The translations under genes and the position numbers were made by a program. Positions 4,480-49,436 of a stretch of 64,000 bases of DNA are shown here, piece by piece; the stretch's first letter is position 1; the number at the start of each line of letters is the position of its first letter. A model generated the notes under the pieces. It worked only from the letters and a program-made list of their open reading frames with translations, made no database searches and was not told the origin of the DNA. This DNA is from Escherichia coli (lineage in GTDB: Bacteria; Pseudomonadota; Gammaproteobacteria; Enterobacterales; Enterobacteriaceae): NCBI GenBank assembly GCA_029351405.1, contig GCA_029351405.1_4841.1; one strand, 5' to 3'.

Positions 4480-4489
4480 GGAATTTATC

Positions 4490-4897
4490 ATGCGTTATGT
4501 AGATCGTATGCTCGGCAAAGACGAGCACGTTATTGCCTTCACCCGCCCGACTTGGTGGAGCGGTTTTTGGATTTACGTTCTGGTTATTTTAACGTTTATC
4601 CCAACATTTGGATTCAGCTTGTTATTTCTGATACCAACAATTTTAAATGTATTGACAACTGAATTCGCTGTGACTAACAAGCGCGTCATCGTCAAACGTG
4701 GTTTCATCCGTCGTGATGCTGATGAGTTGCGCATTGGTAAGGTGGAGACAGTGAAGGTTGATCAGTCCATCACAGGCCGCATCTTGGGCTTCTCAACAAT
4801 CAGCGTGATCGGTACGGGTGGCACCCGCCTGCTGGCCAAGGGTTGTGCTGGTGGTAATGCTTTCCGTCAGAAGATCTACGATCACCTAGAAGACTGA
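4490..4897 (+). CDS. membrane protein with bacterial PH-like domain
   Basis: Two N-terminal transmembrane helices followed by soluble domain of YdbT/DUF304-like layout. Confidence 0.45.
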   Translation: MRYVDRMLGKDEHVIAFTRPTWWSGFWIYVLVILTFIPTFGFSLLFLIPTILNVLTTEFAVTNKRVIVKRGFIRRDADELRIGKVETVKVDQSITGRILGFSTISVIGTGGTRLLAKGCAGGNAFRQKIYDHLED

Positions 4898-4899
4898 TC

Positions 4900-5112
4900 A
4901 TGATCATTTCAGGTTACACTATCGATCTTTATTGTGAATGCTCAGATTGCAAGGCATGCAGTTGGGCTTGGGAAGAGCATCACCCCAAGTGCGGGTTCAA
5001 ACAATACACTGGTGAGACTTGGGGTGAGTGTGTCAAACAGGCGCGAGCAGACGGCTGGCAAATTGGGCGCGACAGGCATACCTGTTACGCCCCTGGCCAC
5101 AAGAGAAGTTAA
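4900..5112 (+). CDS. small cysteine-rich protein
   Basis: 70 aa with CEC-x2-C-x3-C and later Cys/His residues; possible zinc binder. Confidence 0.4.
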   Translation: MIISGYTIDLYCECSDCKACSWAWEEHHPKCGFKQYTGETWGECVKQARADGWQIGRDRHTCYAPGHKRS

Positions 5113-5723
5113 GGTAAGAGTAGTCCATCATCCCGCTCCGTTGGGGCGGGTTTAATCTCCTTCCGCATCTGTTCCTTCAGCACCCTGACACGTTCGGCAT
5201 GTCGGCGATCTTGCATCTCCATATCCCGTTTCTTTTTCGACTTCAATTCGAACTGTTTACGAACATCCGGATCTTCACCTGGAACAAGATGCTCTTCAGT
5301 CCAGATAATGAACTTCCAGTTCTTCTTGGCACACAGTTCGCGGGTGGCCTCCCACTTGGCAGAATTGACCAACCAGGTTCGCATCGCATTGTTGAATGTC
5401 GACTCCTTCATGTTCGGAGTCTTCTTCGGCTGCTTGATCTGGTCTTTGGGCTTGATCTCAATGAGGGTGACCTGTAGTTCATCTTGCCCTTCACGGCGCG
5501 TCCAGACCTTGAGGTCCATGAAGTAACGATGGGTGCGCCCGTCGACTGGGGAAATGTAAGGGATTACGGTCTCCTCACTAGACCACTTCACTATCGCGGA
5601 GTTCATATCACAGAACTTGAAAGCCACCAACTCCAGCGAAGAGCGGAAGATGATGTTATTCACATTCCCCTGATACTTCTTGGGATTAACTGGGGTGTAC
5701 TTCCCCTGAAGATAGTTGCTCAT
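5109..5723 (-). CDS. head completion protein, gp4-like (putative)
   Basis: N-terminal pattern KYTPVNPKKYQGN...IIFRSSLE...WSSEE..IPYISPVDG..HRYF.D...IEIKP recalled as typical of T4 gp4-family proteins; basic C-terminal tail. Confidence 0.45.
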   Translation of the reverse strand: MSNYLQGKYTPVNPKKYQGNVNNIIFRSSLELVAFKFCDMNSAIVKWSSEETVIPYISPVDGRTHRYFMDLKVWTRREGQDELQVTLIEIKPKDQIKQPKKTPNMKESTFNNAMRTWLVNSAKWEATRELCAKKNWKFIIWTEEHLVPGEDPDVRKQFELKSKKKRDMEMQDRRHAERVRVLKEQMRKEIKPAPTERDDGLLLP

Positions 5724-5731
5724 AATCTAGT

Positions 5732-5739
5732 CCTAAATA
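5732..5739 (+). promoter_or_regulatory. late-promoter-like box (CCTAAATA) upstream of baseplate gene
   Basis: TAAATA core 34 nt upstream of ATG at 5774, same spacing as exact TATAAATA boxes elsewhere in window. Confidence 0.35.
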
Positions 5740-5773
5740 GCCATAACACTCTATCTATTTAAGGGCTGAGACC

Positions 5774-6742
5774 ATGGCCGACTTCAAGAAGACAATCGAT
5801 AAGATCAAGGTTCTGAACACGAAGGGATTGTCCCAGGCTCAGAAGCAATTGTCTTATCCCCTGGACGTTACTGGGGGTAAAACCTTGGGACACTATGTCC
5901 TATTCAACATCAACCGCATCTCCGGTTCATCTTATGGCAACACGGCTACTCAGACTATCGAGAACCCAATACAGAACCCTCTGGGGAATACTCCTGTGGT
6001 CTATGGGTCCAAGTCTGGTTCCATCACCAAATATGCATGGGCGCGTCACGTTCGTTCAAACGAATCTATTGTTCTGTGTATGCCGGAGTCCATTACAACC
6101 AACTATGGCGTTGGCTGGAACGGTAGCGAGCTGGGGCTGGCTGGTATGGGGGCACAGTTCCTTTCCCGCGCCGCCCAAGACATGACTCAGTTTAAACTGG
6201 GTGATGCGCTCAACGTCGGGAAGGAGATGGGGAGATTCGCTGCCACCAAGGCTATCCAATCTGCGTCGGAGGCTATTCCATTCCTGCCGAGCATTAACGC
6301 CCATGACACCCTTGAGTTGTTCACAGGCACCATGACCAACCCATATGTGGAGATGATCTTCCAGGGTGTACGCAACCGTGAGATTCCATTTACATTCAAA
6401 TTCACGCCGCGATCTCAGAAGGAAGCCAAGATGGTCCGTGAGATCATCCGCATGTTCAAGATGCACATGTACCCAGAGTACAAGTACAACAAGAACTCCA
6501 GTGCCTTCTATCTGCATCCATCGACCTTTGATATCACGTTCATGGTCAATGGTGAGCGTAACCAATGGCTCCACCGCATCTCCACCTGCGTGCTGTCCAA
6601 CATGTTCGTCAACGAAACGCCGGACAGTTCATATGCAGTACACAAGGATGATGGGATCGTATCTACACAGGTTGACATGACCTTCATCGAACTGGAGCCT
6701 CTGCATAAAGGGCGCTTTGAAACCGAAGGCGATAGCTTCTAA
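5774..6742 (+). CDS. baseplate / tail-tube-associated structural protein (gp48/gp54-like, tentative)
   Basis: 322 aa, first gene of a plus-strand structural operon ending in a tape-measure-like gene; family call tentative. Confidence 0.4.
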   Translation: MADFKKTIDKIKVLNTKGLSQAQKQLSYPLDVTGGKTLGHYVLFNINRISGSSYGNTATQTIENPIQNPLGNTPVVYGSKSGSITKYAWARHVRSNESIVLCMPESITTNYGVGWNGSELGLAGMGAQFLSRAAQDMTQFKLGDALNVGKEMGRFAATKAIQSASEAIPFLPSINAHDTLELFTGTMTNPYVEMIFQGVRNREIPFTFKFTPRSQKEAKMVREIIRMFKMHMYPEYKYNKNSSAFYLHPSTFDITFMVNGERNQWLHRISTCVLSNMFVNETPDSSYAVHKDDGIVSTQVDMTFIELEPLHKGRFETEGDSF

Positions 6743-6753
6743 GAGAGGATGCC

Positions 6754-7308
6754 ATGAAATATTTTGAGAAGTTTCCACTTGTTTGGCATCAATTGCAAGA
6801 TGTCCAAGAGAATGATCAGGTGCTGTTACAGAACTTAACGCGCCGGGTGATGATCTTACAGAAAATTAAGGACATCGAAGGGCTTCTCCTGCCGTATACG
6901 ATCCAAGAGGGGGAAACCCCAAGGTCTTTCGCGGAACGCGTTTACGGATCCTTCGAGTTGTTTTGGATACCTTGTCTGATAAATGGCATCATGGACATCA
7001 ATAAGGACTGGCCGAAACCGGAACGCCGTATTATTGAAGAACTGACTGCAGATTATGGCATCGATGGTATGTGGGATACAGCCTATTATGTCGACCAGTT
7101 CAACAATGTGACCGACGCCCGTGCTATCAAATTTGCATATAACCTAGACCTGGATGAGCCGTCCATAATTGCTAACTATGGCCTGACGGCAGTTTCATAC
7201 CATGATGATGCAATCAGTAAGAATGAAGCCAAACGGAACATCCAAGTACTCGACCCAGATTATGTGTCTTCGTTTGTCAATCAGCTGGAGCAGGAGTTGG
7301 CGAAATGA
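6754..7308 (+). CDS. structural-operon protein (baseplate hub-associated, tentative)
   Basis: 184 aa ORF between baseplate genes; overlapping stop/start with next gene. Confidence 0.35.
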   Translation: MKYFEKFPLVWHQLQDVQENDQVLLQNLTRRVMILQKIKDIEGLLLPYTIQEGETPRSFAERVYGSFELFWIPCLINGIMDINKDWPKPERRIIEELTADYGIDGMWDTAYYVDQFNNVTDARAIKFAYNLDLDEPSIIANYGLTAVSYHDDAISKNEAKRNIQVLDPDYVSSFVNQLEQELAK

Positions 7309-8693
7309 TCGAAAACAGAGAGACCCAAGACGGTATTGTAACACCGTCAACAACATTTGACCTGAAGTATATGGCGATCCTCCCTCATACACCCCAGGGT
7401 GGATCACCAACGCCATATGACCTGACGGCGTTGTTTGAGGAGTTCAACGTCTTCCAGGATCTGGGTCTTGAAGGGAAGTCATCTCCATCACTTACAGCCA
7501 ATGTCTTGATAAAAGAGGGGTGGGACATTCTTGACACAATGCCTATCTTGGGTGGTGAAGAAGTTGTGGTGTCATTCAAGAGTCCGGCGGCCTCGGAATA
7601 CACCACTCTCTCCCTGCGCGTAGCGCGTGTTGGGCGCGTAGCTGATGAGTCCAACAGCTCGTCCAAGAAAGCATTCTGGTTGCACATGGTGACCACCGAT
7701 GCCTATAAGGACAGCATGATCCGCTGCTCCCTCGGTCTTGACGGTTCGTATTCTGACATGGCAAAGGTAATCTTCAATCAGCTGGAGTCGCGCACCAAGT
7801 TCGAAGACATCGACCCGTCGTATGGTATTCAAGAGCGGTTCGCCACCCCGCTCTGGCCTGTGCTGCGATCTATTGATTATATGGCGAGCCGTTCTTATGA
7901 CGAATTGTTCATGCCATTCGTGTTCTATGAAGACTTCAATGGCTATCACTTCAAGAGCCTGACGACGTTGTTCAACCAGGGCAGCCAGTCATTGACAGCA
8001 GAAGAGAAGCAGGAACTAGCTCAGCAGAACAAGTTGTTCCGTGATCCTCAGGACGCGCCGCTCATGCAGGATAACAACTTCAACTCTGAGCGCTTTATGC
8101 GCACGATCATCAAGGCAGAGAAGAAGCTGGCGCGTGACCAGTTCATGGCAAATTACCGTGACGTCCTGGCGGTGAACGAGCGTGTCTACGACTTTGAGAC
8201 CAAGACAGTCACCCCAACACAGCGCATCTATACTGAGTGGTTTGCAGAGACGGCTCACCTTGATCCGTTCCCGATGTTCTCAGATGAATTCAATCGTCAG
8301 AACGTCCGTTACATTGAAGCCCAGCCGGATGGAGCGGAGCAGATTGATTATGCTCGTCGTGTTATCAACTTCAGTCTTGCCAGCACTGTGATGCGCGTGT
8401 TGCTCGTTGGTGATAACCGCCTGAACGTCGGTCAGGTGTTCTACGTCGAAGACCAGTCCAACCGTCCTAAGAAGAACGAAAACCTGGCAGAGTTAAGTAA
8501 GCTATCGACAGGCCACTATATCGTGACCAAAGTGCGTCACAAAATTTCCCGCCTGACCAAAGATTATCAGTGCATCGCTGAGATTGCCAAGGACAGTTTG
8601 CTGGAGCAGGTGCTTCCACCTCAGACCAATCAGACAACTGCTTCCACCACTACTCCTCAGGCGATTGAGAAAGGCCAAGCACAGAAGGTTTAA
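7305..8693 (+). CDS. baseplate hub protein (gp27-like, tentative)
   Basis: 462 aa, precedes tape-measure-like gene; size and position fit hub subunit. Confidence 0.35.
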   Translation: MIENRETQDGIVTPSTTFDLKYMAILPHTPQGGSPTPYDLTALFEEFNVFQDLGLEGKSSPSLTANVLIKEGWDILDTMPILGGEEVVVSFKSPAASEYTTLSLRVARVGRVADESNSSSKKAFWLHMVTTDAYKDSMIRCSLGLDGSYSDMAKVIFNQLESRTKFEDIDPSYGIQERFATPLWPVLRSIDYMASRSYDELFMPFVFYEDFNGYHFKSLTTLFNQGSQSLTAEEKQELAQQNKLFRDPQDAPLMQDNNFNSERFMRTIIKAEKKLARDQFMANYRDVLAVNERVYDFETKTVTPTQRIYTEWFAETAHLDPFPMFSDEFNRQNVRYIEAQPDGAEQIDYARRVINFSLASTVMRVLLVGDNRLNVGQVFYVEDQSNRPKKNENLAELSKLSTGHYIVTKVRHKISRLTKDYQCIAEIAKDSLLEQVLPPQTNQTTASTTTPQAIEKGQAQKV

Positions 8694-8704
8694 CGAGGTG
8701 ACCC

Positions 8705-10651
8705 ATGGCACAGGAAGCAACGAACAATGATGTTGTCAAAGTTCTAGACAAGATCAAGGCGGAGATGATGCAGCGCAAACAACTCCGCGCTCAGAATGAA
8801 ACCAACAGACAGCTTGATCGGATGAACAAGAATCTGGCCAAGCTGGAATCTGCCACTAAACAGGACACCAAGGCCGAGTCCAAGCCATTTGAAATCCGTA
8901 TCCCGACAGTCAATGAGATCGTCATGGGATTCGCTCGCATGTCTCCGATCTTCACCCGCGACTTCAGCGTATGGATGAAGGATACTGTCGATGTGGGTAA
9001 CGAAGGCAATCGGGAACTGGAGAATATCACAGGCAAGATTGACCGCCTCGGTGAGATCACCCGCATGCCAACAGATGACACGTCCCTGGAGTATCTTAAC
9101 CTGATCTCAGACCAGCTGAAGTCTGCCAATGATGACACCCTCAAGCGCATGGACGAGCAGAGTGTGTCTCTGGTCCGCGTGGGATCATTCTTGAACATGA
9201 TCGACGGAGTGATGATCGAGGTTCGTGACGATGTTGCTGAACTGAAAAGGAACTCCGATGACACCCTTACTCGCTTGTCTAGCATTGAAAACAAGATTGG
9301 GCGCACGGGCGGTCATATCGTTGGAGTTCTGACACGCATCTTTGATGAAGACCAGAAGTGGCGTGAGAAGGACGAGATGCGCCGTGGGGAAACCGACAAA
9401 GAAACGGGTGGTCATCCTCAGGCGGGTTCTGTTATACCCAAAGACGATGACCAGAAAGACGATTCCTCCGGTATCGGGGCGGCGGTGGCGGCCATGCTTG
9501 GCCTGAATGCACTGAAGGGCTTCTTGCTCAAGCCGTTCAAGATCATCGGTGGTGTTGTCGGGACTTTCCTCGGCATGTTCTCCAAGCTGGGAGAAGGTAT
9601 CACCAAACTTCTGGGTCCATTTGGGAAGGTGTTCAAGTTCCTGAAAGTCGGCCCACTGGCTCTCCTGTCTATGATCTGGGACTTCGGTAAAGGCTTCATT
9701 GATGCGAAGGAGATCCTGGGTAAAGGTGCTGTCACGATAGTTGACCGAGTACGGGCGGGGATATCAGAACTGGTTGGTGGATTTGGTGATCTATTTGACT
9801 GGGTGTCCAAGATCTTTGGCTTTGATACCAAAGCGGGTGAAACCCTGCGCAAATACACCCTCATGATCACTGAGGCTCCCGCTCGTTGGCTGAATGGTAT
9901 TATCGACTGGATTAGCAACGACTTGTTTGCAGGGATCGGGAGAGACACGTCTCTTACGGATATCCCTGGCAAGTTAGCAGACAACCTACAGTCCGAGTTG
10001 ATGAAGCTGGTAGACTGGATCACAGGGGGTATCAGTAGTGTGATCGACGAGGGCATGGGTGTGGCCAACAAGGTTATTGACGAAATCAAGAAGGGATTTG
10101 CCGAAAATGTGAAGAAACCTTTCTTCAACATGCTGAACACAATCACTAATGCGATGTTCGATATCGTTGACAAGTTCGTCAGCATCATCCCTGACGCTCT
10201 GGGTGGACAGGCTGCGAAGCAGAAGATGGATGAGGCTCGCCAGTCTATGCTGATTGACACTGATGGGAATCCGTCTCCTAATGTGACAGAGACCCAGCAG
10301 CCACAGACGCCAGCACAACCGAACATTGATACACAAACGCTGACTCCAATACCTTCTGGTGTGTCTTCAGATTACAAGAATATGACTAATGACCGCACCT
10401 CTCAGCTGAAAGCTGCGTATGGTTCTATCGGGGGTGGTACTCTGGGCGGGGCCATGCCATCACAAGGGAGGGCGCTGTCTAATATCGAGCAAGTACAAGG
10501 CGGCTATTCACCGCCTCCAGCCAGCGTCGTGATGCCAGTACAGCAGAATGTGGATGCTTCTAAGAGGATCAACACGACCAATAACTTCAACAGCTCATCT
10601 CTTGAGCCTGAGAACAAAACAGATAATTCCCGCATCCTGTGGGAATGGTAA
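8705..10651 (+). CDS. tail tape-measure / baseplate hub protein (gp29-like)
   Basis: 648 aa; N-terminal coiled-coil-rich region, central Gly-rich hydrophobic segment (GIGAAVAAMLGLNALKGFLL...), Q/N/T-rich C-terminus. Confidence 0.5.
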   Translation: MAQEATNNDVVKVLDKIKAEMMQRKQLRAQNETNRQLDRMNKNLAKLESATKQDTKAESKPFEIRIPTVNEIVMGFARMSPIFTRDFSVWMKDTVDVGNEGNRELENITGKIDRLGEITRMPTDDTSLEYLNLISDQLKSANDDTLKRMDEQSVSLVRVGSFLNMIDGVMIEVRDDVAELKRNSDDTLTRLSSIENKIGRTGGHIVGVLTRIFDEDQKWREKDEMRRGETDKETGGHPQAGSVIPKDDDQKDDSSGIGAAVAAMLGLNALKGFLLKPFKIIGGVVGTFLGMFSKLGEGITKLLGPFGKVFKFLKVGPLALLSMIWDFGKGFIDAKEILGKGAVTIVDRVRAGISELVGGFGDLFDWVSKIFGFDTKAGETLRKYTLMITEAPARWLNGIIDWISNDLFAGIGRDTSLTDIPGKLADNLQSELMKLVDWITGGISSVIDEGMGVANKVIDEIKKGFAENVKKPFFNMLNTITNAMFDIVDKFVSIIPDALGGQAAKQKMDEARQSMLIDTDGNPSPNVTETQQPQTPAQPNIDTQTLTPIPSGVSSDYKNMTNDRTSQLKAAYGSIGGGTLGGAMPSQGRALSNIEQVQGGYSPPPASVVMPVQQNVDASKRINTTNNFNSSSLEPENKTDNSRILWEW

Positions 10652-41518: not shown

Positions 41519-42573
41519 CGCACTTTCCTCAGTTCAGCGAATTGTAATGATGCGGCCATACCTTGGTAAACGTTCTTGGCGATCAGCTTCAGGAGGTCTT
41601 GTATGGACATGTTGCCCTTTGATGGCATGACCATGTCGTTGATATCCTTCCAAGGAACGTCTGGTGGGAACAGTACAACTTTGACACCTTTATCTATCAT
41701 CTTCTGAATACCGTCACACACCTGCGGGTTCCGGTACTGATTATCAGGGATATAAATGTCGCCCTTCACGCTCAGTAGATCAGCATCGGCCGATGCAAGA
41801 CAGTTGGGTAGGAACAGGCTGTCAATCGGACCTTCCACAACCAGCTTGGTCTTGTGAATGTTCACCCGGTCTTCACCATACACCTTAGTGTCTTCATCCT
41901 TGGGCTTGACTGTTGCGTAGCGCAGTGTCGCACTCTTGTCGAATGCACGCCCCTGAACGATCTTCATGCGACCATCCTGAGTCCAGAACGGAATCACCAG
42001 CCGCTCATCGTCGGGGATCTTCAGCTGCTTCTCAGGGTTCGTTTCGAACTGGAGTAGATCCTGGCGGAAGTGCTGTGTGTAATATAGGAGGGTCAAAGTG
42101 CTCTCCGGCAGTCCACGCCACTGTACGTACTGTCGAGCCTTATGGTCAGGCGGTAGCAGATCAAGCCGTAGCATATTGCCGAGGAGGCTCTCGTCGCGTT
42201 TCGCCGCCACTGAGCCAATACGGGCGGTCTGTGTCAGCTTTGGCAACGGCTTCAGGGAAGGAAGTGGTCTGCCCGACGTATCACCCAGCAGACGGAACTT
42301 CTCCATGTTGTACTCTGTTGAGAGGCGTTCGTCGAACTTCTTCAGCCAGAACTCAAATGACCAGCCATTCATCTGGTTGCAGTTGTGGCACTTGAACCGG
42401 AAGCAGTCATTATCTCGATCGAAGAAAAAATAACCGCGTCGCTTATTAGCACTTTTGAGAGAATCTCCACAAAGCGGGCATCTAAAATTTGCGACAGACC
42501 CAACGCGTTCCCACTTGAATTTATCGAGTCTGGGAGCAACGTAATTTATGAATTGTTCATCAAGAAATTTCAT
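41515..42573 (-). CDS. DNA primase (gp61-like, zinc-ribbon plus TOPRIM)
   Basis: Zinc-ribbon CPLCGD ... CHNCN and TOPRIM-like acidic motif VVEGPIDSLFL; start at Met abutting upstream stop. Confidence 0.7.
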   Translation of the reverse strand: MKFLDEQFINYVAPRLDKFKWERVGSVANFRCPLCGDSLKSANKRRGYFFFDRDNDCFRFKCHNCNQMNGWSFEFWLKKFDERLSTEYNMEKFRLLGDTSGRPLPSLKPLPKLTQTARIGSVAAKRDESLLGNMLRLDLLPPDHKARQYVQWRGLPESTLTLLYYTQHFRQDLLQFETNPEKQLKIPDDERLVIPFWTQDGRMKIVQGRAFDKSATLRYATVKPKDEDTKVYGEDRVNIHKTKLVVEGPIDSLFLPNCLASADADLLSVKGDIYIPDNQYRNPQVCDGIQKMIDKGVKVVLFPPDVPWKDINDMVMPSKGNMSIQDLLKLIAKNVYQGMAASLQFAELRKVR

Positions 42574-43184
42574 TAGATCTTCGGCCTCTGGAACACTTCG
42601 GTCACAGTATAGTCTACACCACGACTTTGAGCTATACACAGTTGTCGCCAAGCCCCATACAGGATATTCTGCTCCCCGGCAGTGTTGCGCTCAAAGTGGG
42701 CGAAGCCGTCGAGGAGTTTCATGTAGCTGCGCATAAGCTGGGTAACGGTTCTTCCTCTCTTGATCTGTTCATCAAGGTACTTCTGATAATGCTCTGGTGA
42801 TGACAATGAAGAGTACTTCATGTCTGGCACATGAACTGGCATCAGGGACTTGCGGGGTGTGAAGTAGAACAACCCCCACTTTGGTGGCAGGTCTTCAACC
42901 CTGATCACGTCCTGAGGGCAGACATAAAAGCGGTATGCGCCCATGCCCGTCGTCGGATCCATGCGATGAGGCTTCTTCTTGTCGGTAAGGAAATCAGAGC
43001 GAGACACCTTCACTTCCATCAGGATAGAGCAACCGCCGGAACGGAACCCGATGGCATCAGGTGATTCTTTGTTGTCAAACGAATTTGGCTCGATGAAGAC
43101 AGCGCCGCAGTTCATGCGACCGCGCAGGTAGTTGGCCGCGATTTCACATCCTTCGCGGTGTGACGGGATAAAGATTTTGCTCAT
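42573..43184 (-). CDS. PD-(D/E)XK nuclease-like protein (putative)
   Basis: Candidate catalytic triad PDAIGF ... ILMEVKVS (D ... E-x-K). Confidence 0.4.
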   Translation of the reverse strand: MSKIFIPSHREGCEIAANYLRGRMNCGAVFIEPNSFDNKESPDAIGFRSGGCSILMEVKVSRSDFLTDKKKPHRMDPTTGMGAYRFYVCPQDVIRVEDLPPKWGLFYFTPRKSLMPVHVPDMKYSSLSSPEHYQKYLDEQIKRGRTVTQLMRSYMKLLDGFAHFERNTAGEQNILYGAWRQLCIAQSRGVDYTVTEVFQRPKI

Positions 43185-43241
43185 TGTCCTTTCCTTTTGG
43201 TGAATAATGAGCAAAATTATATGCCTTTATTTCGTATTGAC

Positions 43242-43595
43242 TTACGACAGCTGCTTCAGTTTGTAGATCGTCTGATAGCACAGTGTCTTGATTTCATCAA
43301 GCGTGTTCTGAAGGTGGGAGTCACACTGCTTGTAGATGCCATCGACGTCTATCACCACACTGTTAATATAGGAGATAGGGTCTGGGTTGTAGAGCTTGAT
43401 GTTCTCGAATGATGGAACATACTGACCACCCGCACCGATGTATGCTTCGGTAAACGTGTCCAGCAAGCCCTCCAGTTCCCCGTAGAACTCCCCGAGTGCC
43501 TTGTGCTTGGCATAGGATGTTGTAACGAAGTGCAAGGCATGAGAGTGGGCTATAGCAAGCAGTCCACGGTTGATGAAAATACTCGCATTGACCAT
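43242..43595 (-). CDS. hypothetical protein
   Basis: 117 aa ORF, helical, no motif. Confidence 0.45.
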   Translation of the reverse strand: MVNASIFINRGLLAIAHSHALHFVTTSYAKHKALGEFYGELEGLLDTFTEAYIGAGGQYVPSFENIKLYNPDPISYINSVVIDVDGIYKQCDSHLQNTLDEIKTLCYQTIYKLKQLS

Positions 43596-43688
43596 GATGT
43601 TGTCCTCAGAAAAAGAAATCCCCCTGTATTTAGGGGGATCCAGTTACAGACCAAGTTCTTTCGTCGTGGCGTCGTCTAGTGCAACCTC

Positions 43689-44258
43689 CTAGACAGGCTT
43701 AACACCGAGGAACTTGGCAATGTCAGCAGCCAGGTTTTTACCCTTGCTGATATCATGCTCCTTGCCGTTGCAGGTGACGATCACATACGGGTCATCTTCA
43801 CCACCGAAGTTCACGGTGATCGCCTTGCCGATGCCAGGGATGCCAGAGTATTCGAACTCAGTACGACCACTCTTGCGAGACTTGCCAGCACCCAGTGCTT
43901 TACCGATCATCTTGTCCATGTTCGCCAGTTCCTGAGCATAGGATTCGGTCACCTGGCCTTTGTCGGCAGACTTGCCAAAGAAGAATTCGAAGCCGTCATG
44001 GACAGCAACGACTTCCTGACCTTGGGAAATACCGTGAGTCTGATCCGGAGTCAGCTTCACCTTGATGGTGTTGCCGTTGGTTAACTCCAGGTTGTAGACA
44101 TCCGCCTGATTGTCAGGAGTGATCTGGGTCACGGTAGCGCCGGAACACCACTGGGTGCCGTCAGCTTGCTTGGTGATGGATACGGTCTTACCCTGGACAC
44201 CAGCATGGGTCTGAGGTTTAGCGGCTTGTTCTTTAAAATATTCGATAAACGGTTTCAT
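43689..44258 (-). CDS. late-expressed protein (probable virion component)
   Basis: 189 aa ORF with GAGGAG ribosome-binding site, 25 nt downstream of exact TATAAATA box. Confidence 0.5.
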   Translation of the reverse strand: MKPFIEYFKEQAAKPQTHAGVQGKTVSITKQADGTQWCSGATVTQITPDNQADVYNLELTNGNTIKVKLTPDQTHGISQGQEVVAVHDGFEFFFGKSADKGQVTESYAQELANMDKMIGKALGAGKSRKSGRTEFEYSGIPGIGKAITVNFGGEDDPYVIVTCNGKEHDISKGKNLAADIAKFLGVKPV

Positions 44259-44282
44259 CTTAATCTCCTCGGGGATTTCAGT

Positions 44283-44290
44283 TATTTATA
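44283..44290 (-). promoter_or_regulatory. T4-type late promoter (TATAAATA)
   Basis: Exact TATAAATA on minus strand between GC hairpin and ribosome-binding site of 43689..44258. Confidence 0.55.
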
Positions 44291-44291
44291 A

Positions 44292-44306
44292 GCCCCCGAA
44301 GGGGCT
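44292..44306 (-). terminator. putative terminator hairpin
   Basis: GCCCC-TTCG-GGGGC hairpin 10 nt after stop of 1017-aa gene, followed by TTATAAATAA. Confidence 0.45.
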
Positions 44307-44314
44307 TTCGATGA

Positions 44315-47300
44315 TCAGATCTTAATCTGCATGTTGCCACCCAGGGACTGCTCGTACTCGCTGTATGCGCCTTCCCCGTAGTCTCGTGCCCACTGGTCAG
44401 ACTGCTGGGCGCTATCCAGAGTCATCAGGTTTGGTTCAGTCGGGTTGTAACCCTTGGACTTCGCATCCCGGTACAGAGTCTGCAGGTACTGGTTGGCGCG
44501 GTCAATCTGAGCTTTGAACTCGCGATATGCCCCTTCAGTTGTGTTGCGGCGGAAGGTGATATCCCAGTCCACGTTCAGAGTCTGGCCATCACGGCTTGCA
44601 TAGATCTGCCAATCCAGGTCGCGACCTTTTGGTGCGTTGTCGCGGATGGAGTCGGCGTATGCCGCAAGGTCGACACCAGTCTTCTTCGCAGTACTCGACT
44701 CTTTCTCCAGTCTCTCGGTTTCTTTGGACAGGATACCCAACATAAATTCATTAGTGCGGCGATCCGCCATGTCGTACCCGCGCCAAAGGACTGAACCGTT
44801 GTTGTCAACAGAAATGTCGTCCAAAAATACTTGTTTCGGATTATGCGACGTGCTTTTCAGAGTTTGCATATTCCGAGATATCATTTCCATATTAGAAGAA
44901 ATTTCATCGATCAATGCCTGAACAATGTCTTTCTTCAAAGGAAGTTCATATGTCTTCGGATTGTTCAGCAGCCGCCCTTTCTGGGAGATCATCGGTGTGA
45001 ACGCGACTTTTCCTTTGTCGTAGTAATAGGTCACATTCGTGGTCAATACAGCACCATCATACTTCCCAGTTTTCGGGAAATTGACGCCAGACCAAGTGAT
45101 GGACATACCGTTGACAGTCTCACCAAACACCATGGCGTTGCTTGGCATCTTCAGGGTTCCAGAGTTGACCAGATCAGCGCCTTGGGCATTCAGGTCGATA
45201 GAACCATAGATGGCCCCGGTAATACGATCTTTCAGCATCAGGGTCTTGTCGCCCTTCTCTGGGATGATTTCCAGCGGGTGCTTGCCACGCGGAGGCTCTT
45301 TGATGAGTTCCAGCAGAGCAGTGTTCCCAGGCTTCACACGATTCAGGACAGCGTCGGACACTGTCAGAGTCCAGTTTGCGGTTTCCACATAACCCCAGCC
45401 CCGAGAACGGCGAATGGCTTTGATAGGATATGGAGCGCTTGTTGGAACTGCGCTAATTTCCCATTTGCCAGTGTACTGGGTCTTGGCAACCTCAAAGATG
45501 GACGCAATTACCGCATTGGCGACGTCACGGGCGCTACCTTTGGCCACGCTCTCCTCTTCAGCAATTTCGCTGAAAACTGAGTATTGAACGAAACCAGCGA
45601 GGACGTTTGTGAAGTTGACAACGATAACCAACCCGCCTGCCGTCGTGTAACGACCAGCGCCCACGCGACGGATGTTTTCACCAGGAAGAATAGAAGTGTC
45701 CAGCCCAACGTTGGTATCAATGATACCCAGAACACGAGCGATGAAACCGCTGTCACGTAATTGATCAACACTGGTTGCACCCTCGGTCGAATCCGATGCG
45801 GATTTAGACACTTTGTTCAACTTGATAGAGACAAGAGTTTCCCCGTTGACACCGATGATATCCCATTCAGTACCCTGCTCGTTCGAGATGCGGGCAATCT
45901 TGCGCTTTGAATTGATGGCACCTTCGTAACGCCCGTTTTTGACCACAACAGAGGCAGTAGCAGCATCAGTAGCACTTGCTGCATTTGAAAAGTCTGGGTC
46001 AGAAATACTGATGTCGACGTCACCGTTTTGAGAACGCATGCGAACACCGTTTTTGAATCGTTCCACGTTTACTTCTCGAGCACCAAGTCGTTTGGCATCA
46101 ATAACAGCAGTTCCAGAACCGATAATGTTGGCTGGGTTATTTCTGTCTGAACTGTTTTGAGAACCTTTCCAAAATTTTGTGGACGCTGTGGTGAAATCAT
46201 TCAGGATACTGATAGGGACTTGTGGTAATTTCAACTGACGAGCAATGAAATCAGCACTTTGCCCACGCACAGGTTTCTCATTCATGTATGCGCCAACATA
46301 CACGCCCGGCTCATTGTAGTGGGGAGCGATATTTGCCGTGACTAAGCGACCTTTTTCTTTCCCCGCCCACACTAACATTGGTTGAGTGGCATCGGCTTTT
46401 GTGAGTTTCCAACCGTTGTCATTGCTGGTGTCATTGCTGGTGTCATTGCTGGTGTCAACGTCCACCACCAGAATTATCTGAGCACCTTTCTTGAAAGTGT
46501 ACTGATCGTACATGCCTTTCTTCTGTTTGGTCATGGACGCACCGACCAAGTCTTGGTTGGTGAAGCCGCGCTTCATATTCCAAGATACCTCAGTCCCGTC
46601 TGGATATTTGTCAAAATCATAACCATAGAATGCGGCTACTTCTTTCGAACCGCTTATCAGGCGGACGTAGTTTCCACGAATCGGGTCTCGCCCGCTCTTC
46701 AACTCCAGACCAGTGTCCGAGCTGTTGTACCACTCGCGGTTGACTTCGATTTCAGAAGAACCAGCCCCAACTCCCACATCCGAAGTATTATTCTGAACCG
46801 GAACGTCGCCGACCTTGTCTGGATCATCCCAGGTGATACCCTGCATCTTCGGACCGTCGAATACCTGAGCCGGATCTTTACCCTTGCGGACCAGCCACAC
46901 ATAACCACGGTCAGGGACAGGCGCGTAGGTCAGGTCCATGACATTCAGTTTCTGTTTCAGACCGGACTGGCGGATAATCTTAGGAATCAGGGTCATACCG
47001 CGATCCAGTGCTTTCTTGGAGAAGTTGACAGCAAAGCCATCGATGGTCTTGCCCAGAGGAGTCGCCATGAATTGTTTGGTCGCTTCGATCATGCTGGCAA
47101 TAACGCGCATTGGGTTCTTGAAGCGAGCGATGGCGTCAGGATAGACGGAGCCGCGCTTCTGGCCGATGAAAACCTGACGAACGCTCTTGCCCAGCCCCTG
47201 AGGGGTATAGAACTGAATACGGTATTCCTTTTCATCTTCGTCGACGAAGGTGAAGAACACATCGCCTGCGTTCTTCTTACCCATGGTCAGCTCATACGGA

Positions 47301-47368
47301 GCGGAGTTGAACGCTTCGTCCAACTGATCTCTTTCCTGCATGAACTGGAGGAAACTTAGCTTTGACAT
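44315..47368 (-). CDS. large hypothetical protein (1017 aa; possible virion structural or ejected protein)
   Basis: Long uninterrupted ORF with AGGAG ribosome-binding site; contains DTSN x3 repeat; lies upstream of a late gene; no catalytic motif recognised. Confidence 0.6.
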   Translation of the reverse strand: MSKLSFLQFMQERDQLDEAFNSAPYELTMGKKNAGDVFFTFVDEDEKEYRIQFYTPQGLGKSVRQVFIGQKRGSVYPDAIARFKNPMRVIASMIEATKQFMATPLGKTIDGFAVNFSKKALDRGMTLIPKIIRQSGLKQKLNVMDLTYAPVPDRGYVWLVRKGKDPAQVFDGPKMQGITWDDPDKVGDVPVQNNTSDVGVGAGSSEIEVNREWYNSSDTGLELKSGRDPIRGNYVRLISGSKEVAAFYGYDFDKYPDGTEVSWNMKRGFTNQDLVGASMTKQKKGMYDQYTFKKGAQIILVVDVDTSNDTSNDTSNDNGWKLTKADATQPMLVWAGKEKGRLVTANIAPHYNEPGVYVGAYMNEKPVRGQSADFIARQLKLPQVPISILNDFTTASTKFWKGSQNSSDRNNPANIIGSGTAVIDAKRLGAREVNVERFKNGVRMRSQNGDVDISISDPDFSNAASATDAATASVVVKNGRYEGAINSKRKIARISNEQGTEWDIIGVNGETLVSIKLNKVSKSASDSTEGATSVDQLRDSGFIARVLGIIDTNVGLDTSILPGENIRRVGAGRYTTAGGLVIVVNFTNVLAGFVQYSVFSEIAEEESVAKGSARDVANAVIASIFEVAKTQYTGKWEISAVPTSAPYPIKAIRRSRGWGYVETANWTLTVSDAVLNRVKPGNTALLELIKEPPRGKHPLEIIPEKGDKTLMLKDRITGAIYGSIDLNAQGADLVNSGTLKMPSNAMVFGETVNGMSITWSGVNFPKTGKYDGAVLTTNVTYYYDKGKVAFTPMISQKGRLLNNPKTYELPLKKDIVQALIDEISSNMEMISRNMQTLKSTSHNPKQVFLDDISVDNNGSVLWRGYDMADRRTNEFMLGILSKETERLEKESSTAKKTGVDLAAYADSIRDNAPKGRDLDWQIYASRDGQTLNVDWDITFRRNTTEGAYREFKAQIDRANQYLQTLYRDAKSKGYNPTEPNLMTLDSAQQSDQWARDYGEGAYSEYEQSLGGNMQIKI
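46418..46453 (-). repeat. 12-nt tandem repeat x3 (GTCATTGCTGGT on plus strand) encoding DTSN-DTSN-DTSN
   Basis: Three perfect consecutive copies read directly in sequence, in-frame within the 1017-aa CDS. Confidence 0.8.
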
Positions 47369-47443
47369 TTTATATCTCCTGATTGAATTAACGGCGATTT
47401 CTTCTAATTAGCGAAACCAAAAGGGAGCGTCAGCCCCCTTATC

Positions 47444-47779
47444 TTATTTTTGAACTTGGGCTACAGACATCGCCCAGAGCGGGAGGGTGTGGGGGTCCAG
47501 GGCTTCCAGTAGATATTCGACGCGCTCTGACATGATACCTTCAGGGAAGTTTACTTCTTCTGGTTCGTTGTTGGCCGTCCAACCCAAGGTCAGTCCTTCA
47601 GCGTGATGGATGATATAAACGAAGTCGCCCGATTCGTAGTCCTTTTCCATCAGGTCGAAGAACGCTTCCATTTCTTCGTCGGAGAAGTAGTAGATGCGAG
47701 GTACGGAGCCGTCAGCAAAGTGTTCAGCACCCTGGAAGGCAAACATGTCATCGGCGGTGAAGTTCTTGAGTTGTGTCAT
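47444..47779 (-). CDS. hypothetical protein
   Basis: Start at Met inside AGGAACTATATCATG cassette; acidic; followed by hairpin and T-tract. Confidence 0.45.
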   Translation of the reverse strand: MTQLKNFTADDMFAFQGAEHFADGSVPRIYYFSDEEMEAFFDLMEKDYESGDFVYIIHHAEGLTLGWTANNEPEEVNFPEGIMSERVEYLLEALDPHTLPLWAMSVAQVQK

Positions 47780-47801
47780 GATATAGTTCCTTCGGTTCAA
47801 A

Positions 47802-48077
47802 TTAACGGCGGAAAGGGCGGTTTGCGTTTTCGCGGTTAGACCAATTCTTTTCAGCCCGAGCGATAGCCGCTGGACTCCATTCGCGCTCCCACTCTTTGTC
47901 TACTTCAGCCTGGTTGGCAGGCTCTACCATTTCAACGCCAGGGAAGTCGCATGACATGATTTCGCGCAGCTGGGCAGCTGGGGCGGTCTGGGCGTGGATC
48001 AATTCTTCGCCGTCGTAAACCTTGGCCATCAGGTATTTCTGACCGTGGCGGATATATGCGTCGAGGATAATTTTCAT
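47802..48077 (-). CDS. hypothetical protein
   Basis: Start at Met inside AGGAACTACACCATG cassette. Confidence 0.45.
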   Translation of the reverse strand: MKIILDAYIRHGQKYLMAKVYDGEELIHAQTAPAAQLREIMSCDFPGVEMVEPANQAEVDKEWEREWSPAAIARAEKNWSNRENANRPFRR

Positions 48078-48192
48078 GGTGTAGTTCCTGCTTTTCAAGT
48101 TGGTGTTGTACTGCTTATGGAATGAAGTATAGGGAAGGATATTGAAGAAGTAAAGGGGCGAAAGCCCCTTTTATTGAATTATTTTTACGGCG

Positions 48193-48822
48193 TCAGCTCA
48201 CAACCGGAATGTGGGATCGAATACCTGCGATGATGTCCTTCAGCTGAGGCTTCCATCCACCCACCAAACGGGGTAGAGCGATAGCACCAGGCTGGACCAA
48301 AATGATGTCGCTGCCTGTGATATTGTGCTGAGGGAACTGGGCGAGGTACTGCTCCATTGTGACACCCTCATCAATCAGAACCGCACCGACGTCAGACGAT
48401 GCGTAGGTTGCACCCAGACCGTCAACGCCCCATGCCAAGATGCCCCAGTCAGGGATGTTGGCTTCAGATGTGATGGTGAATCCAAACACGGTGTTCAGCG
48501 ATGTAAAGGAGTAGACATCGTGGGTGAGGTCATGCACCAGATACCCCTTGGCCAGCATATCGGCAAAGATCGCGTCTGTATCGCCAGCAGCCGGAGTCGG
48601 CACAGTAAACAACAGCTCACCCTCAGGAGGAGCAGGGTATGTTCTGAGGGCATAGAGGCACCATGCGTCAATACACTTCTTGATAAATGCCTCTGGTGCG
48701 ACATAATCGGCAAGGCGAACCGTGCCTGAGTACTCGGATACGATGATGCCTTCCTTCGCGCCCTGTAGAGCGATGAAGACCAAGATATGTTCATATCCGG
48801 TCTGAGATGGAGTGATGTTCAT
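48193..48822 (-). CDS. hypothetical protein
   Basis: Start at internal Met (MNITPSQ) overlapping upstream stop; no motif. Confidence 0.45.
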   Translation of the reverse strand: MNITPSQTGYEHILVFIALQGAKEGIIVSEYSGTVRLADYVAPEAFIKKCIDAWCLYALRTYPAPPEGELLFTVPTPAAGDTDAIFADMLAKGYLVHDLTHDVYSFTSLNTVFGFTITSEANIPDWGILAWGVDGLGATYASSDVGAVLIDEGVTMEQYLAQFPQHNITGSDIILVQPGAIALPRLVGGWKPQLKDIIAGIRSHIPVVS

Positions 48823-49436
48823 TATCTTGTCCTCTTCAGTTTCTCTATCGTGTGCTTGTTCATGGCGATCACCCGAGGATCTACCTCGGAGATGGTCCGG
48901 CCTTTGAAGGACACACATTTCTGAAGATATTTAGCTTTCTTCACGACGTCAGCGGCATAAGCGTTCGATGCAGGATTACGGGCAAAGCCAGCATTGTAAG
49001 AGGAGAGGGATTTGCGGATATTCTGATTGTGATAGGTCAGCCAGAACTGCATCTCATCGAGGGCGGCTTGCGCGGCATATTCTTGGTCGGTCAGCAACTT
49101 TATGGCGACATTGGCATAGCACTTGCGATTCTTACAACCTTCGCGATCACCAACTGTCTTCACCTTGTTCTGAAAGGCTCCCATGTTGGCCGCCTTGAGG
49201 CCGTATCGCATTGACACTACATCTTCGCCAGCGCGGCTCTCACGCCAAGATATGGCGGCCAGAGTGTAGCCAAGATCTTGTGTCTTGCCCACGTGATAGG
49301 CGGTTGCCATCGTATTAAGTTGTTGCTCGGAGAAATTATAAACACATTGGCTTGTATTTTGGGAAGCGTGCACATTCCCGCTGGCAATGGTAAAGGTCAC
49401 GGACAAGGCCATGGCCTTCAACGTTGTCATCGTCAT
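48822..49436 (-). CDS. exported lytic transglycosylase (SLT-domain) with signal peptide
   Basis: N-terminal signal peptide (MTMTTLKAMALSVTFTIASGNVHA); SLT catalytic motif AISWRESRAGEDVVS ... GAFQ and later YNAG motif. Confidence 0.55.
   Translation of the reverse strand: MTMTTLKAMALSVTFTIASGNVHASQNTSQCVYNFSEQQLNTMATAYHVGKTQDLGYTLAAISWRESRAGEDVVSMRYGLKAANMGAFQNKVKTVGDREGCKNRKCYANVAIKLLTDQEYAAQAALDEMQFWLTYHNQNIRKSLSSYNAGFARNPASNAYAADVVKKAKYLQKCVSFKGRTISEVDPRVIAMNKHTIEKLKRTR

What the first reader, a model, noticed from the sequence alone, without database searches (positions are those of the whole stretch)
44315..47368. 1017-aa protein of unknown family with an internal DTSN x3 repeat
This is the largest gene in the window and has no recognisable catalytic motif. 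It contains a perfect 12-nt tandem repeat (three copies at 46418..46453) encoding DTSN-DTSN-DTSN. Short perfect repeats in coding regions are slippage-prone and can give length variation between isolates. It is followed by a hairpin and an exact late promoter driving the next gene, so it may be a large virion, baseplate, tailspike or ejected protein.
Basis: seen in the sequence. Interest (0 to 1): 0.5.

Follow-up and report, generated by a model that had tools for sequence, protein, structure and literature searches.

The report
Alt-like packaged virion protein, modular
The largest gene in this phage window encodes an abundant but unnamed virion protein whose N-terminal domain matches that of phage T4's injected enzyme Alt, so it is probably carried inside the head and injected with the DNA, and its DTSN repeat is just a slippage-prone linker between swappable middle segments.

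Summary
A 1017-aa ORF lies at 44315..47368 on the minus strand, and it contains a perfect 12-nt repeat (3.4 copies) encoding DTSN x3. After the stop codon come a stable hairpin and TATAAATA.

The window is from an Ackermannviridae phage, and the gene sits between the gp46/47-like nuclease and the primase. No Pfam, NCBIfam or PDB match exists; the only family hit is PHROG 3867 (function unknown).

Orthologs are major components of purified virions in three published proteomes: Sajous1 gp214, EspM4VN gene 182 and LIMEstone1 ORF081/082.

Residues 1-195 are almost invariant across the family. They are homologous to the N-terminal domain of T4 Alt, a prohead-core protein that is ejected with the DNA (hhalign 92.8%; Foldseek E 1e-6). 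The family's invariant L16-D17-E18 aligns with Alt's protease cleavage site, ITE-6.

The same N-domain heads many unrelated proteins, and three of these carry Alt-type ADP-ribosyltransferase domains. The middle of this protein is built from cassettes that are present or absent between phages. The repeat lies in a linker at a cassette edge and varies from 1 to 3 units between relatives.

Best reading: a head-internal, probably injected protein whose cargo function is unknown. Head location, cleavage and ejection are inferred, not shown.

The parts
44315..47368 (-). CDS of the 1017-aa protein (112 kDa; stop codon 44315..44317)
   Evidence: ORF list. Orthologs occur in 176+ Ackermannviridae records, all annotated 'hypothetical'. 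PHROG 3867, function unknown, E=0.
47315..47368 (-). Putative N-terminal propeptide, aa 1-18, ending in L16-D17-E18 (predicted prohead-protease site; cleavage inferred)
   Evidence: hhalign places L16-D17-E18 opposite T4 Alt I4-T5-E6, where gp21 cleaves Alt ('ITE-6', PMC5694885). 39/40 aligned family members have hydrophobic-x-E at this column, and 73/76 representatives carry the motif within the first 43 aa. In EspM4VN virion MS the tryptic peptides 1-13 and 14-31 were not seen, while coverage runs from 32 to 545.
46784..47314 (-). Alt-N-like domain, aa 19-195 (basic, pI 9.55); the conserved 'delivery' module
   Evidence: 150/195 positions are invariant across 49 diverse family members. AF2 with a diverse MSA gives pLDDT 88.4, pTM 0.81. 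Foldseek against BFVD hits Alt proteins of phiAS5, HY03, CF1, SP18 and Henu6 at E 1e-6 to 7e-5, TMq 0.52-0.59. Profile-profile hhalign against 7 Alt N-termini gives 92.8%, E 4e-7, over 157 columns. The domain is always at the extreme N-terminus of 430-1440 aa proteins.
46457..46783 (-). Cassette A, aa 196-304: optional middle segment
   Evidence: Present in about 40% of the aligned family members and absent from the 906-aa forms such as RPN242.
46417..46457 (-). 12-nt tandem repeat (GAC ACC AGC AAT x3.4) = DTSN x3 linker at the C-edge of cassette A
   Evidence: TRF. It lies in a low-confidence, linker-like stretch of the model, pLDDT<50 for aa 293-316. Copy number is 1-3 in relatives, with DTSSN variants.
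46133..46416 (-). Cassette B, aa 318-412
   Evidence: Occupancy 0.75; 65% identical to Sajous1 gp214.
45797..46132 (-). Cassette C, aa 413-524: optional middle segment
   Evidence: Occupancy 0.42.
44696..45796 (-). Body segments D/E, aa 525-891: alpha/beta-rich, well modelled, function unknown
   Evidence: pLDDT mostly 70-90. They are replaced by unrelated sequence in the short orthologs EspM4VN and LIMEstone1. No significant fold match was found.
44318..44695 (-). Conserved C-terminal domain, aa 892-1017 (acidic, pI 4.9; signature TFRRNT..GA and YSEYEQSxGG)
   Evidence: Found at the C-terminus of orthologs and as stand-alone 110-300 aa proteins. E1006 is 100% conserved in 61 sequences. It is intact in the EspM4VN virion, where a peptide reaches the penultimate residue.
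44290..44307 (-). Hairpin after the stop codon (AAGCCCC-UUCG-GGGGCUU)
   Evidence: -13.1 kcal/mol, z -3.1.
44283..44290 (-). TATAAATA, T4-type late-promoter consensus, in front of the next gene
   Evidence: 3 copies in the window against 0.52 expected. Equivalent site annotated 'putative late promoter' in LIMEstone1.
43689..44258 (-). Neighbouring 189-aa ORF, also a virion protein by orthology; its N-terminus MKPFIEYFKE resembles the T4 capsid-targeting sequence
   Evidence: 85% identical to Sajous1 gp215 (32 spectra) and 94% to LIMEstone1 ORF080, a 'confirmed structural protein'. The T4 CTS is MKTYQEFIAE (PMC8442874).
47405..47440 (-). Upstream terminator-like hairpin (47421..47440) followed by the invariant block TTCGCTAATTA (47405..47415)

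Best explanation
The gene encodes a T4-Alt-like internal head protein of an Ackermannviridae phage. A short N-terminal propeptide plus a basic, almost invariant domain of about 180 aa, homologous to the N-terminal domain of T4 Alt, would recruit the protein into the prohead scaffolding core. The T4-type prohead protease would then clip it after L16-D17-E18. The roughly 110-kDa mature protein stays in the filled head in tens of copies and is expelled into the cell with the DNA. Behind this delivery module sits the cargo: a chain of small alpha/beta segments joined by Ser/Thr/Asn/Asp-rich linkers, which phages gain, lose and swap, ending in a conserved acidic C-terminal domain. The cargo has no recognisable enzyme signature. 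Its most likely role is an early host-directed or anti-defence function, but that is a guess. The DTSN x3 repeat is a microsatellite in one inter-cassette linker. It changes length by slippage in multiples of 3 nt and is probably tolerated spacer variation rather than a switch. SHOWN: the ORF, repeat, hairpin and promoter motif; the virion presence and abundance of orthologs; the homology of the N-domain to the Alt N-domain; the conserved L/I-x-E motif; the modular architecture; the repeat copy-number variation. INFERRED: head-internal location, proteolytic cleavage, ejection, and any cargo function.
For: Virion presence by orthology. Sajous1 gp214 is syntenic, with the N-domain 86% identical, and gave 196 spectra in CsCl-purified virions, third after the major capsid protein and VriC (PMC10892097 Table 6). 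EspM4VN gene 182 came from a Coomassie-stained SDS-PAGE band with 28 peptides spanning aa 32-545 of 546 (PMC7283392 Table S3). LIMEstone1 ORF081 gave 23 unique peptides at 55% coverage, and ORF082 was also detected; both are 'confirmed structural protein' (PMC3296691). The LIMEstone1 paper states that its unknown structural proteins have structural counterparts in ViI.

Alt link. The N-domain model (pLDDT 88.4) matches Alt models of several Straboviridae phages (Foldseek E 1.3e-6 to 6.7e-5, prob 1.00). The hhalign probability rises with Alt profile depth, from 3% to 37% to 92.8% (E 4e-7), always over the same collinear alignment of N-domain 14-176 to Alt 2-176. 3/40 distant members hit the Alt PHROG 802. 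Three distant N-domain proteins carry a C-terminal PF03496 ADP-ribosyltransferase domain (P0185, P0246, P0187).

T4 Alt is a prohead-core protein of about 40 copies, ejected into the host and cleaved by gp21 at ITE-6. The aligned family motif is [LI]-x-E in 39/40 sequences.

Ackermannviridae have a T4-type prohead protease, core and scaffold (Sajous1 gp154-156). The EspM4VN capsid protein shows no peptide before residue 65, as expected for T4-like processing.

Delivery-module behaviour. The N-domain is always N-terminal on otherwise unrelated proteins. A Vibrio Ackermannviridae phage has two near-adjacent paralogs sharing only this domain.

The neighbouring virion protein has a CTS-like N-terminus and a late promoter.
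Against: No experiment places this protein or any ortholog inside the head; all three proteomes used whole virions. No semi-tryptic peptide showing a mature N-terminus at A19 is available, and the missing peptides 1-31 could be a detection gap. The role of the Alt N-domain in packaging has itself never been demonstrated; the T4 literature calls core localisation 'mysterious' (PMC9958956). The Alt profile used here is shallow (7 sequences), and the hhalign E-value is pairwise, not database-corrected. Foldseek output does not say which part of Alt aligned. No TATAAATA precedes the gene, so late expression is not evident from the sequence. Modular beta-rich cassettes with low-complexity linkers are also typical of surface-exposed proteins. 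The C-domain shows no similarity to Alt (a weak test).
Confidence: 0.6

Rival explanations
1. It is an external virion component: a tail or baseplate accessory, or a capsid decoration protein. On this view the swappable cassettes and variable linker reflect exposure to the environment or to host surfaces.
For: It is abundant in whole-virion proteomes. It has a modular beta-rich architecture with Ser/Thr/Asn/Asp linkers, cassette gain and loss, and repeat length variation, as in many surface proteins. Some GenBank records and the Sajous1 paper label orthologs 'tail completion protein'.
Against: The N-domain is homologous to that of Alt, a head-internal ejected protein, and carries the protease-site motif. 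No tailspike beta-helix, Ig-like, baseplate or fibre fold or Pfam domain was found. The gene lies outside the tail and tailspike gene clusters. No solved phage structure contains a sequence relative. The 'tail completion' label has no supporting homology; GenBank calls Sajous1 gp214 'hypothetical'.
Confidence: 0.2
2. It is a head-internal protein that is not an injected effector. It might be a structural or assembly factor of the prohead core, or a DNA-organising 'inner body' protein that stays in the capsid. Its conserved ends would contact the core or the DNA, and its middle would be a tolerant spacer.
For: It shares the Alt-type N-domain and virion presence described above. It is universally conserved and syntenic in Ackermannviridae (176-356 records), which suits a morphogenetic role. 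The basic N-domain (pI 9.55) and acidic C-domain could bind DNA and protein. No enzymatic domain was found in the cargo. Middle length varies freely from 530 to 1208 aa.
Against: In T4 the proteins that stay in the mature head after clipping (Alt and the IPs) are ejected and non-essential. Relatives with the same N-domain carry toxin-type ADP-ribosyltransferase domains, which only make sense if delivered to a cell. Cassette turnover looks more like arms-race diversification than a neutral spacer.
Confidence: 0.15
3. It is a non-structural replication or recombination protein, as its genomic neighbourhood suggests, that merely co-purifies with virions.
For: The gene sits between the gp46/47-like nuclease and the primase. 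Trace amounts of replication proteins are seen in the same proteomes.
Against: It ranks third by spectra in Sajous1, second by unique peptides in LIMEstone1, and is a stained gel band in EspM4VN. That is far above the contaminant level of 1-5 spectra.
Confidence: 0.03

Closest known systems
Bacteriophage T4 Alt (NAD-protein ADP-ribosyltransferase; PHROG 802; about 40 copies in the prohead core; ejected with the DNA)
   Same: Homologous N-terminal domain of about 160-175 aa starting right after a short propeptide. The [LI]-x-E motif lies at the position of Alt's gp21 cleavage site ITE-6. Both are large proteins present in virions at moderate copy number and encoded outside the main structural module. 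Some members of this N-domain superfamily do carry the Alt-type ART domain.
   Different: The window protein has no ADP-ribosyltransferase domain (no PF03496 hit). Its cargo is a cassette array of unknown function plus a distinct conserved C-domain unrelated to Alt. The propeptide is 18 aa rather than 6. The C-terminus is not trimmed in the EspM4VN ortholog, whereas Alt loses 63 C-terminal residues.
T4 internal proteins IPI/IPII/IPIII and the polymorphic internal proteins of T4-like phages (10-aa capsid-targeting sequence MKTYQEFIAE plus variable cargo)
   Same: The logic is the same: a conserved N-terminal targeting element, cleavage after Glu by the prohead protease, a highly variable cargo, non-structural-module location and injection with the DNA. 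The 189-aa neighbour begins MKPFIEYFKE, which resembles the CTS.
   Different: Here the conserved element is a folded domain of about 180 aa that is retained in the mature protein (peptides from aa 32 onward), not a 10-aa peptide that is discarded. The protein is 5-10 times larger than the IPs.
PHROG 3867 / the 'unknown structural proteins' of ViI-like phages (LIMEstone1 ORF081/082, Sajous1 gp214, EspM4VN gene 182)
   Same: Direct orthologs with the same synteny and the same N- and C-terminal domains.
   Different: The window protein is one of the longer forms (1017 aa against 530-800 aa). It carries cassettes A and C and has the highest pure DTSN copy number seen (3).
MuF-type and other phage-head 'polymorphic toxin' proteins, and P1 Dar proteins (conserved head-incorporation module plus swappable effector). 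This comparison rests on general knowledge; it was not tested here.
   Same: Architectural principle: a conserved packaging module fused to diverse C-terminal payloads.
   Different: No sequence or fold relationship was tested or found; the phage lineage and packaging machinery differ.

Membership tests
T4 Alt family (head-packaged ADP-ribosyltransferase) | Alt-type N-terminal domain | tested here: met
   hhalign A3 vs 7 Alt N-termini: 92.8%, E 4e-7, 157 columns. Foldseek vs BFVD Alt models: E 1e-6 to 7e-5.
T4 Alt family (head-packaged ADP-ribosyltransferase) | C-terminal ADP-ribosyltransferase catalytic domain (PF03496 / PHROG 802 core) | tested here: not met
   No PF03496 or any Pfam hit in the window protein at E<=1; only PHROG 3867. 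Therefore it is not an Alt enzyme.
T4 Alt family (head-packaged ADP-ribosyltransferase) | N-terminal propeptide removed by the prohead protease at an L/I-x-E site | tested here: inconclusive
   The motif L16-D17-E18 is present, invariant, and aligned to Alt ITE-6. Peptides 1-31 are absent from EspM4VN MS. No direct observation of the mature N-terminus exists.
T4 Alt family (head-packaged ADP-ribosyltransferase) | Located inside the head and ejected into the host | not testable with these tools
   Only whole-virion proteomes of orthologs are available.
PHROG 3867 (Ackermannviridae unknown structural protein) | Full-length profile match and synteny between the gp46-like nuclease and the primase | tested here: met
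   E=0, 1220 bits; synteny in 5 genomes.
T4 internal proteins (CTS-bearing IPs) | 10-aa capsid-targeting sequence resembling MKTYQEFIAE at the extreme N-terminus | tested here: inconclusive
   The window protein starts MSKLSFLQFMQE, with only loose resemblance judged by eye. The neighbour's MKPFIEYFKE matches M1, K2, E6 and E10. No statistical test was made.
Tailspike / tail fibre / baseplate proteins | Beta-helix, fibre or baseplate fold, or tail-protein Pfam domain; location in the tail gene cluster | tested here: not met
Hoc-like capsid decoration proteins | Tandem Ig-like domains | tested here: not met
   No Ig-type Pfam hit; no internal repeats by self-BLAST; no Ig fold among the fold-search hits.

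The most novel reading that the evidence does not exclude
The Alt-N-like domain may be a portable, folded capsid-targeting and ejection module, distinct from the 10-aa CTS. On this reading it defines a superfamily of polymorphic injected proteins across Ackermannviridae, Straboviridae and other large myophages. The Ackermannviridae member would then be an abundant, universally conserved injected protein whose cassette-shuffled middle is an arms-race interface with host defences. That would also explain how T4 Alt itself is recruited to the scaffolding core, which T4 reviews still describe as unknown.
Probability: 0.35. Interest if true: 0.75.

Novelty: new variant of a known kind. Interest (0 to 1): 0.55.

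Why it matters
Every ViI-like (Ackermannviridae) phage carries this gene, including many being developed against Salmonella, E. coli O157, Klebsiella and Dickeya. Three virion proteomes list its product among the most abundant particle proteins, yet it is still annotated 'hypothetical' or mislabelled.

Linking it to the N-terminal domain of T4 Alt gives the first mechanistic handle: it is probably delivered into the cell at the moment of infection.

It also yields a testable hypothesis for an open T4 question, namely what targets Alt to the prohead core. The proposed answer is a conserved folded domain shared by proteins with very different payloads (ADP-ribosyltransferases, deaminase- and ParB-like domains, and this cassette protein).

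If the domain is sufficient for packaging, it would be a tool for loading proteins into Ackermannviridae heads.

The DTSN repeat by itself is minor. It is a genuine in-frame microsatellite in a linker, possibly useful as a strain marker, and unlikely to act as a functional switch.

Tried and rejected
- Pfam, NCBIfam and a PDB sequence search on the full protein found nothing. A PDB profile search with the N-domain alignment also found nothing.
- A full-length AF2 model was built. The N-domain failed (pLDDT<50) because the first alignment was nearly invariant there. This was solved with a diverse N-domain alignment.
- Self-BLAST for internal domain repeats found none, so the cassettes are not detectable paralogs of each other.
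- I considered the weak Spore_GerAC Pfam hit (E 0.12) and the protochlorophyllide reductase PDB hit (E 0.31) and rejected both as chance.
- hhalign of the N-domain against a single Alt sequence was not significant (3%). I did not accept the link until deeper profiles and the fold search agreed.
- PF26846, precomputed on Alt N-termini, could not be examined because it is absent from the local Pfam copy.
- The C-domain showed no similarity to Alt. That alignment was compromised by out-of-frame translation of two loci, so it is a weak negative.
- The Sajous1 supplementary files hold no peptide-level data, so they could not reveal the mature N-terminus.
- A search for a late promoter upstream of the gene found no TATAAATA, even allowing 1 mismatch, within the upstream intergenic region.
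- A literature search for prior description of an Alt-like or ejected protein in Ackermannviridae found nothing relevant.
- The conserved upstream block TTCGCTAATTA was tested as a recurrent promoter motif. It is unique in the window.
Full report
**Observation**

The window holds a 1017-aa ATG-initiated ORF at 44315..47368 on the minus strand. It is the largest ORF in the 64 kb. Tandem Repeats Finder reports a period-12 array at 46417..46457 with 3.4 copies and 100% identity. In frame it reads (GAC ACC AGC AAT)x3 = DTSN-DTSN-DTSN, aa 305-316. After the stop codon there is a 7-bp GC-rich hairpin (-13.1 kcal/mol, z -3.1). It abuts an exact TATAAATA at 44283..44290, one of three in the window against 0.5 expected. 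A 189-aa ORF follows. No TATAAATA, even with one mismatch, lies in the intergenic region upstream of the 1017-aa gene itself.

**Context**

Megablast places the window in the Ackermannviridae (ViI/Ag3-like; Aglimvirinae/Agtrevirus-type), and the gene is present in at least 176 phage records. In all examined genomes it lies between the gp47/gp46-like SbcCD nuclease and the primase. That is the replication/recombination module, not the tail or head gene cluster. It is annotated 'hypothetical protein' almost everywhere. The Ag3 and LIMEstone1 records have it broken into two or three ORFs. Pfam, NCBIfam and PDB sequence searches give nothing. The only family hit is PHROG 3867, of unknown function.

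**It is a virion protein**

Three published proteomes of purified particles contain the ortholog at high abundance.

- Sajous1 gp214 is syntenic. Its N-domain is 86% identical and its C-terminal 487 aa are 44% identical. It gave 196 spectra, third after the major capsid protein (924) and VriC (311) (PMC10892097).
- EspM4VN gene 182 (546 aa) was identified from a Coomassie-stained gel band with 28 peptides covering aa 32-545 (PMC7283392 Table S3).
- LIMEstone1 ORF081 and ORF082 are the same gene split by a frameshift in the record. They gave 23 and 4 unique peptides. ORF081 had 55% coverage, second only to the tail sheath (PMC3296691). The authors note a cluster of unknown structural proteins at ORF78-85 and say these have structural counterparts in ViI.

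The neighbours are detected too: the 189-aa ORF, the Dps/ferritin-like 117-aa ORF, the ORF at 48193..48918 and, in Sajous1 only, the RegB-like protein. This evidence applies to the window protein only by orthology.

**Architecture**

Across 49 diverse family members, 150 of the first 195 positions are invariant. No other segment comes close. The middle is a mosaic:

- Segment A (aa 196-304) is present in about 40% of members.
- Segment C (413-524) is present in about 42%.
- Segment B is present in about 75%.
- Short orthologs (530-546 aa) replace the entire 200-890 region with unrelated sequence.
- Long orthologs (up to 1208 aa) have extra inserts.

The last roughly 125 aa form a second conserved domain with the signatures TFRRNT..GA and YSEYEQSxGG.

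An exhaustive HMMER scan of 1.8 billion representatives found 131 relatives, which fall into two independent sets. In one, the N-domain sits at the extreme N-terminus of otherwise unrelated 430-1440 aa proteins. In the other, the C-domain is usually C-terminal and often stands alone in 110-300 aa proteins.

A Vibrio Ackermannviridae phage has two near-adjacent paralogs at the syntenic site that share only the N-domain.

**The N-domain is the Alt N-domain**

Three distant N-domain proteins carry a C-terminal PF03496 ADP-ribosyltransferase domain and hit the 'Alt-like' PHROG 802.

With a diverse alignment, the N-domain folds confidently (pLDDT 88.4, pTM 0.81). Foldseek against predicted viral structures returns, after the domain's own family, Alt proteins of phiAS5, HY03, 50AhydR13PP, CF1, SP18 and Henu6 (E 1.3e-6 to 6.7e-5, prob 1.00, TMq 0.52-0.59). 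It also returns proteins annotated with deaminase and ParB/sulfiredoxin domains.

At the sequence level, hhalign of the family profile against Alt improves steadily with Alt profile depth: 3% against one sequence, 37% against four, and 92.8% (E 4e-7) against seven. The alignment is always the same collinear one, N-domain 14-176 to Alt 2-176.

There are caveats. The Alt profile is shallow, the E-value is pairwise, and Foldseek does not report the aligned range in the target. Two independent methods and the ART fusions agree, so I accept homology with about 0.85 confidence.

**What that implies**

According to the T4 literature, Alt is a non-essential component of the prohead scaffolding core (about 40 copies). 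It remains in the mature head, is ejected into the host, and is clipped by the gp21 protease at ITE-6 and also at LTE-619 (PMC9958956, PMC9026906, PMC5694885).

In the alignment, ITE-6 falls exactly on L16-D17-E18 of the window protein. L16, E18, A19 and F20 are invariant in the family. 39 of 40 diverse N-domains have hydrophobic-x-E at that column. 73 of 76 representatives have the motif within the first 43 residues, with L or I at P3 in 68 of those 73.

Ackermannviridae encode a T4-type prohead protease, core and scaffold. In the EspM4VN data the capsid protein has no peptide before residue 65. Gene 182 has none before residue 32, although the 18-aa tryptic peptide 14-31 should be readily detectable. 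This is consistent with cleavage at E18 but does not prove it. The N-domain itself is retained in the mature protein, since peptides are seen from aa 32 onward. The C-terminus is intact.

**The cargo**

**The repeat**

The DTSN array lies in a stretch of the model with pLDDT<50 (aa 293-316), at the C-terminal edge of cassette A, which makes it an inter-segment linker. Among relatives that have this cassette, the linker takes several forms:

- DTSN x2 in four clusters
- x3 in the window only
- DTSN-DTSSN-DTSN
- DTSN-DTSSN-DTSSN
- DTSN-DTSSN
- DTSN-DTSN-GN
- DTSN followed by SSSVD(D/N)SN

At the DNA level, one close relative differs from the window by exactly one 12-nt unit with identical flanks. 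Others differ by AGC triplet insertions. So slippage-type, in-frame length variation is real. It looks like tolerated linker variation rather than a regulatory switch.

**Rivals**

- An external tail or decoration role is the main alternative (about 0.2). It is favoured only by the modular, linker-rich look and by unsupported 'tail completion' labels.
- A head-internal but non-ejected structural role is possible (about 0.15).
- Contamination by a replication protein is excluded by abundance.

**Verdict**

The protein is a virion protein, most likely of the ejected, head-internal kind rather than a tailspike or baseplate part, and the repeat does vary. The added value is the homology of its invariant N-terminal domain to that of T4 Alt, and the picture of a shared delivery module with swappable cargo. 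I rate it as a new variant of a known kind, of moderate interest.

Noticed in passing
window 43689..44258 (-): The next gene (189 aa) is preceded by the TATAAATA late-promoter motif. It starts MKPFIEYFKE, which resembles the T4 capsid-targeting sequence MKTYQEFIAE (M1, K2, E6, E10 identical; aromatic or hydrophobic residues at 4, 7, 8). Its orthologs are in virions (Sajous1 gp215, 32 spectra; LIMEstone1 ORF080). It may be an IP-like internal head protein.
   Followed up: partly
window 43242..43595 (-): A 117-aa Dps/ferritin-like ORF, annotated elsewhere as 'starvation-inducible transcriptional regulator'. It is 95% identical to Sajous1 gp217 and 92% to LIMEstone1 ORF078, both detected in virions. 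The Sajous1 authors proposed a tail 'ferrojan horse' role, but a head-internal DNA-associated role seems equally possible.
   Followed up: partly
window 42573..49436 (-): The whole stretch forms an islet of virion-associated proteins inside the replication module: the RegB-like ORF, the 48193..48918 ORF, the 1017-aa ORF, the 189-aa ORF and the Dps-like ORF. Orthologs of the last four are in the LIMEstone1 (ORF078-085) virion proteome, and those of the 1017-aa, 189-aa and Dps-like ORFs also in the Sajous1 (gp214-217) proteome; the RegB-like ortholog was detected only in Sajous1 (gp211).
   Followed up: partly
window 47405..47440 (-): Upstream of the gene is a terminator-like hairpin whose stem changes between phages, apparently with compensatory substitutions. 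It is followed by an invariant block, TTTCGCTAATTA...AAA(C/T)CGC, that is conserved even where the upstream gene is unrelated (Sajous1, EspM4VN). The 11-mer is unique in the window, so it looks like a gene-specific regulatory element.
   Followed up: partly
window 43616..43641 (-): The hairpin GGATCCCCCTAAATACAGGGGGATTT, between the 189-aa and Dps-like ORFs, carries CTAAATAC in its loop. This matches the 'CTAAATAcCcc' motif listed as promoter-like in the EspM4VN paper. There are only two copies in the window.
   Followed up: no
L003 (Ag3 NC_013693) 3001..5380; L012 (LIMEstone1 HE600015) 5416..7012: The reference records of Ag3 and LIMEstone1 have this gene split into 3 and 2 ORFs. In LIMEstone1, peptides were found from both pieces, so at least that split is probably a sequencing or annotation frameshift.
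   Followed up: partly
Public annotations of orthologs: Labels are inconsistent. The Sajous1 paper's Table 6 and the Guerrero GenBank record say 'tail completion protein', Klebsiella phage FKP10 says 'endolysin', and 0507-KN2-1 says 'phage associated protein'. None is supported by homology found here.
   Followed up: no
L016 (Vibrio phage 144E46.1 MW824370) 4421..6637 and 6992..10072: Two near-adjacent paralogs at the syntenic site share only the Alt-N-like domain (56% identity) and lack the C-domain. BFVD also lists a 182-aa N-domain-only protein next to a 1139-aa one (A0A2I7RYC8/9).
   Followed up: partly
Proteins P0188-P0249: The conserved C-terminal domain (YSEYEQSxGG signature) occurs as stand-alone proteins of 110-300 aa and at the ends of unrelated proteins in metagenomes. 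One of these also carries a KMPT-N domain (P0223). Among isolated phages, tblastn finds it only in enterobacterial Ackermannviridae.
   Followed up: partly
Alt N-termini P0250-P0258: A recent Pfam family, PF26846, is precomputed on Alt N-terminal regions but is missing from the local Pfam library, so its name and scope could not be checked. None of the window protein's relatives carries it in the precomputed table.
   Followed up: no
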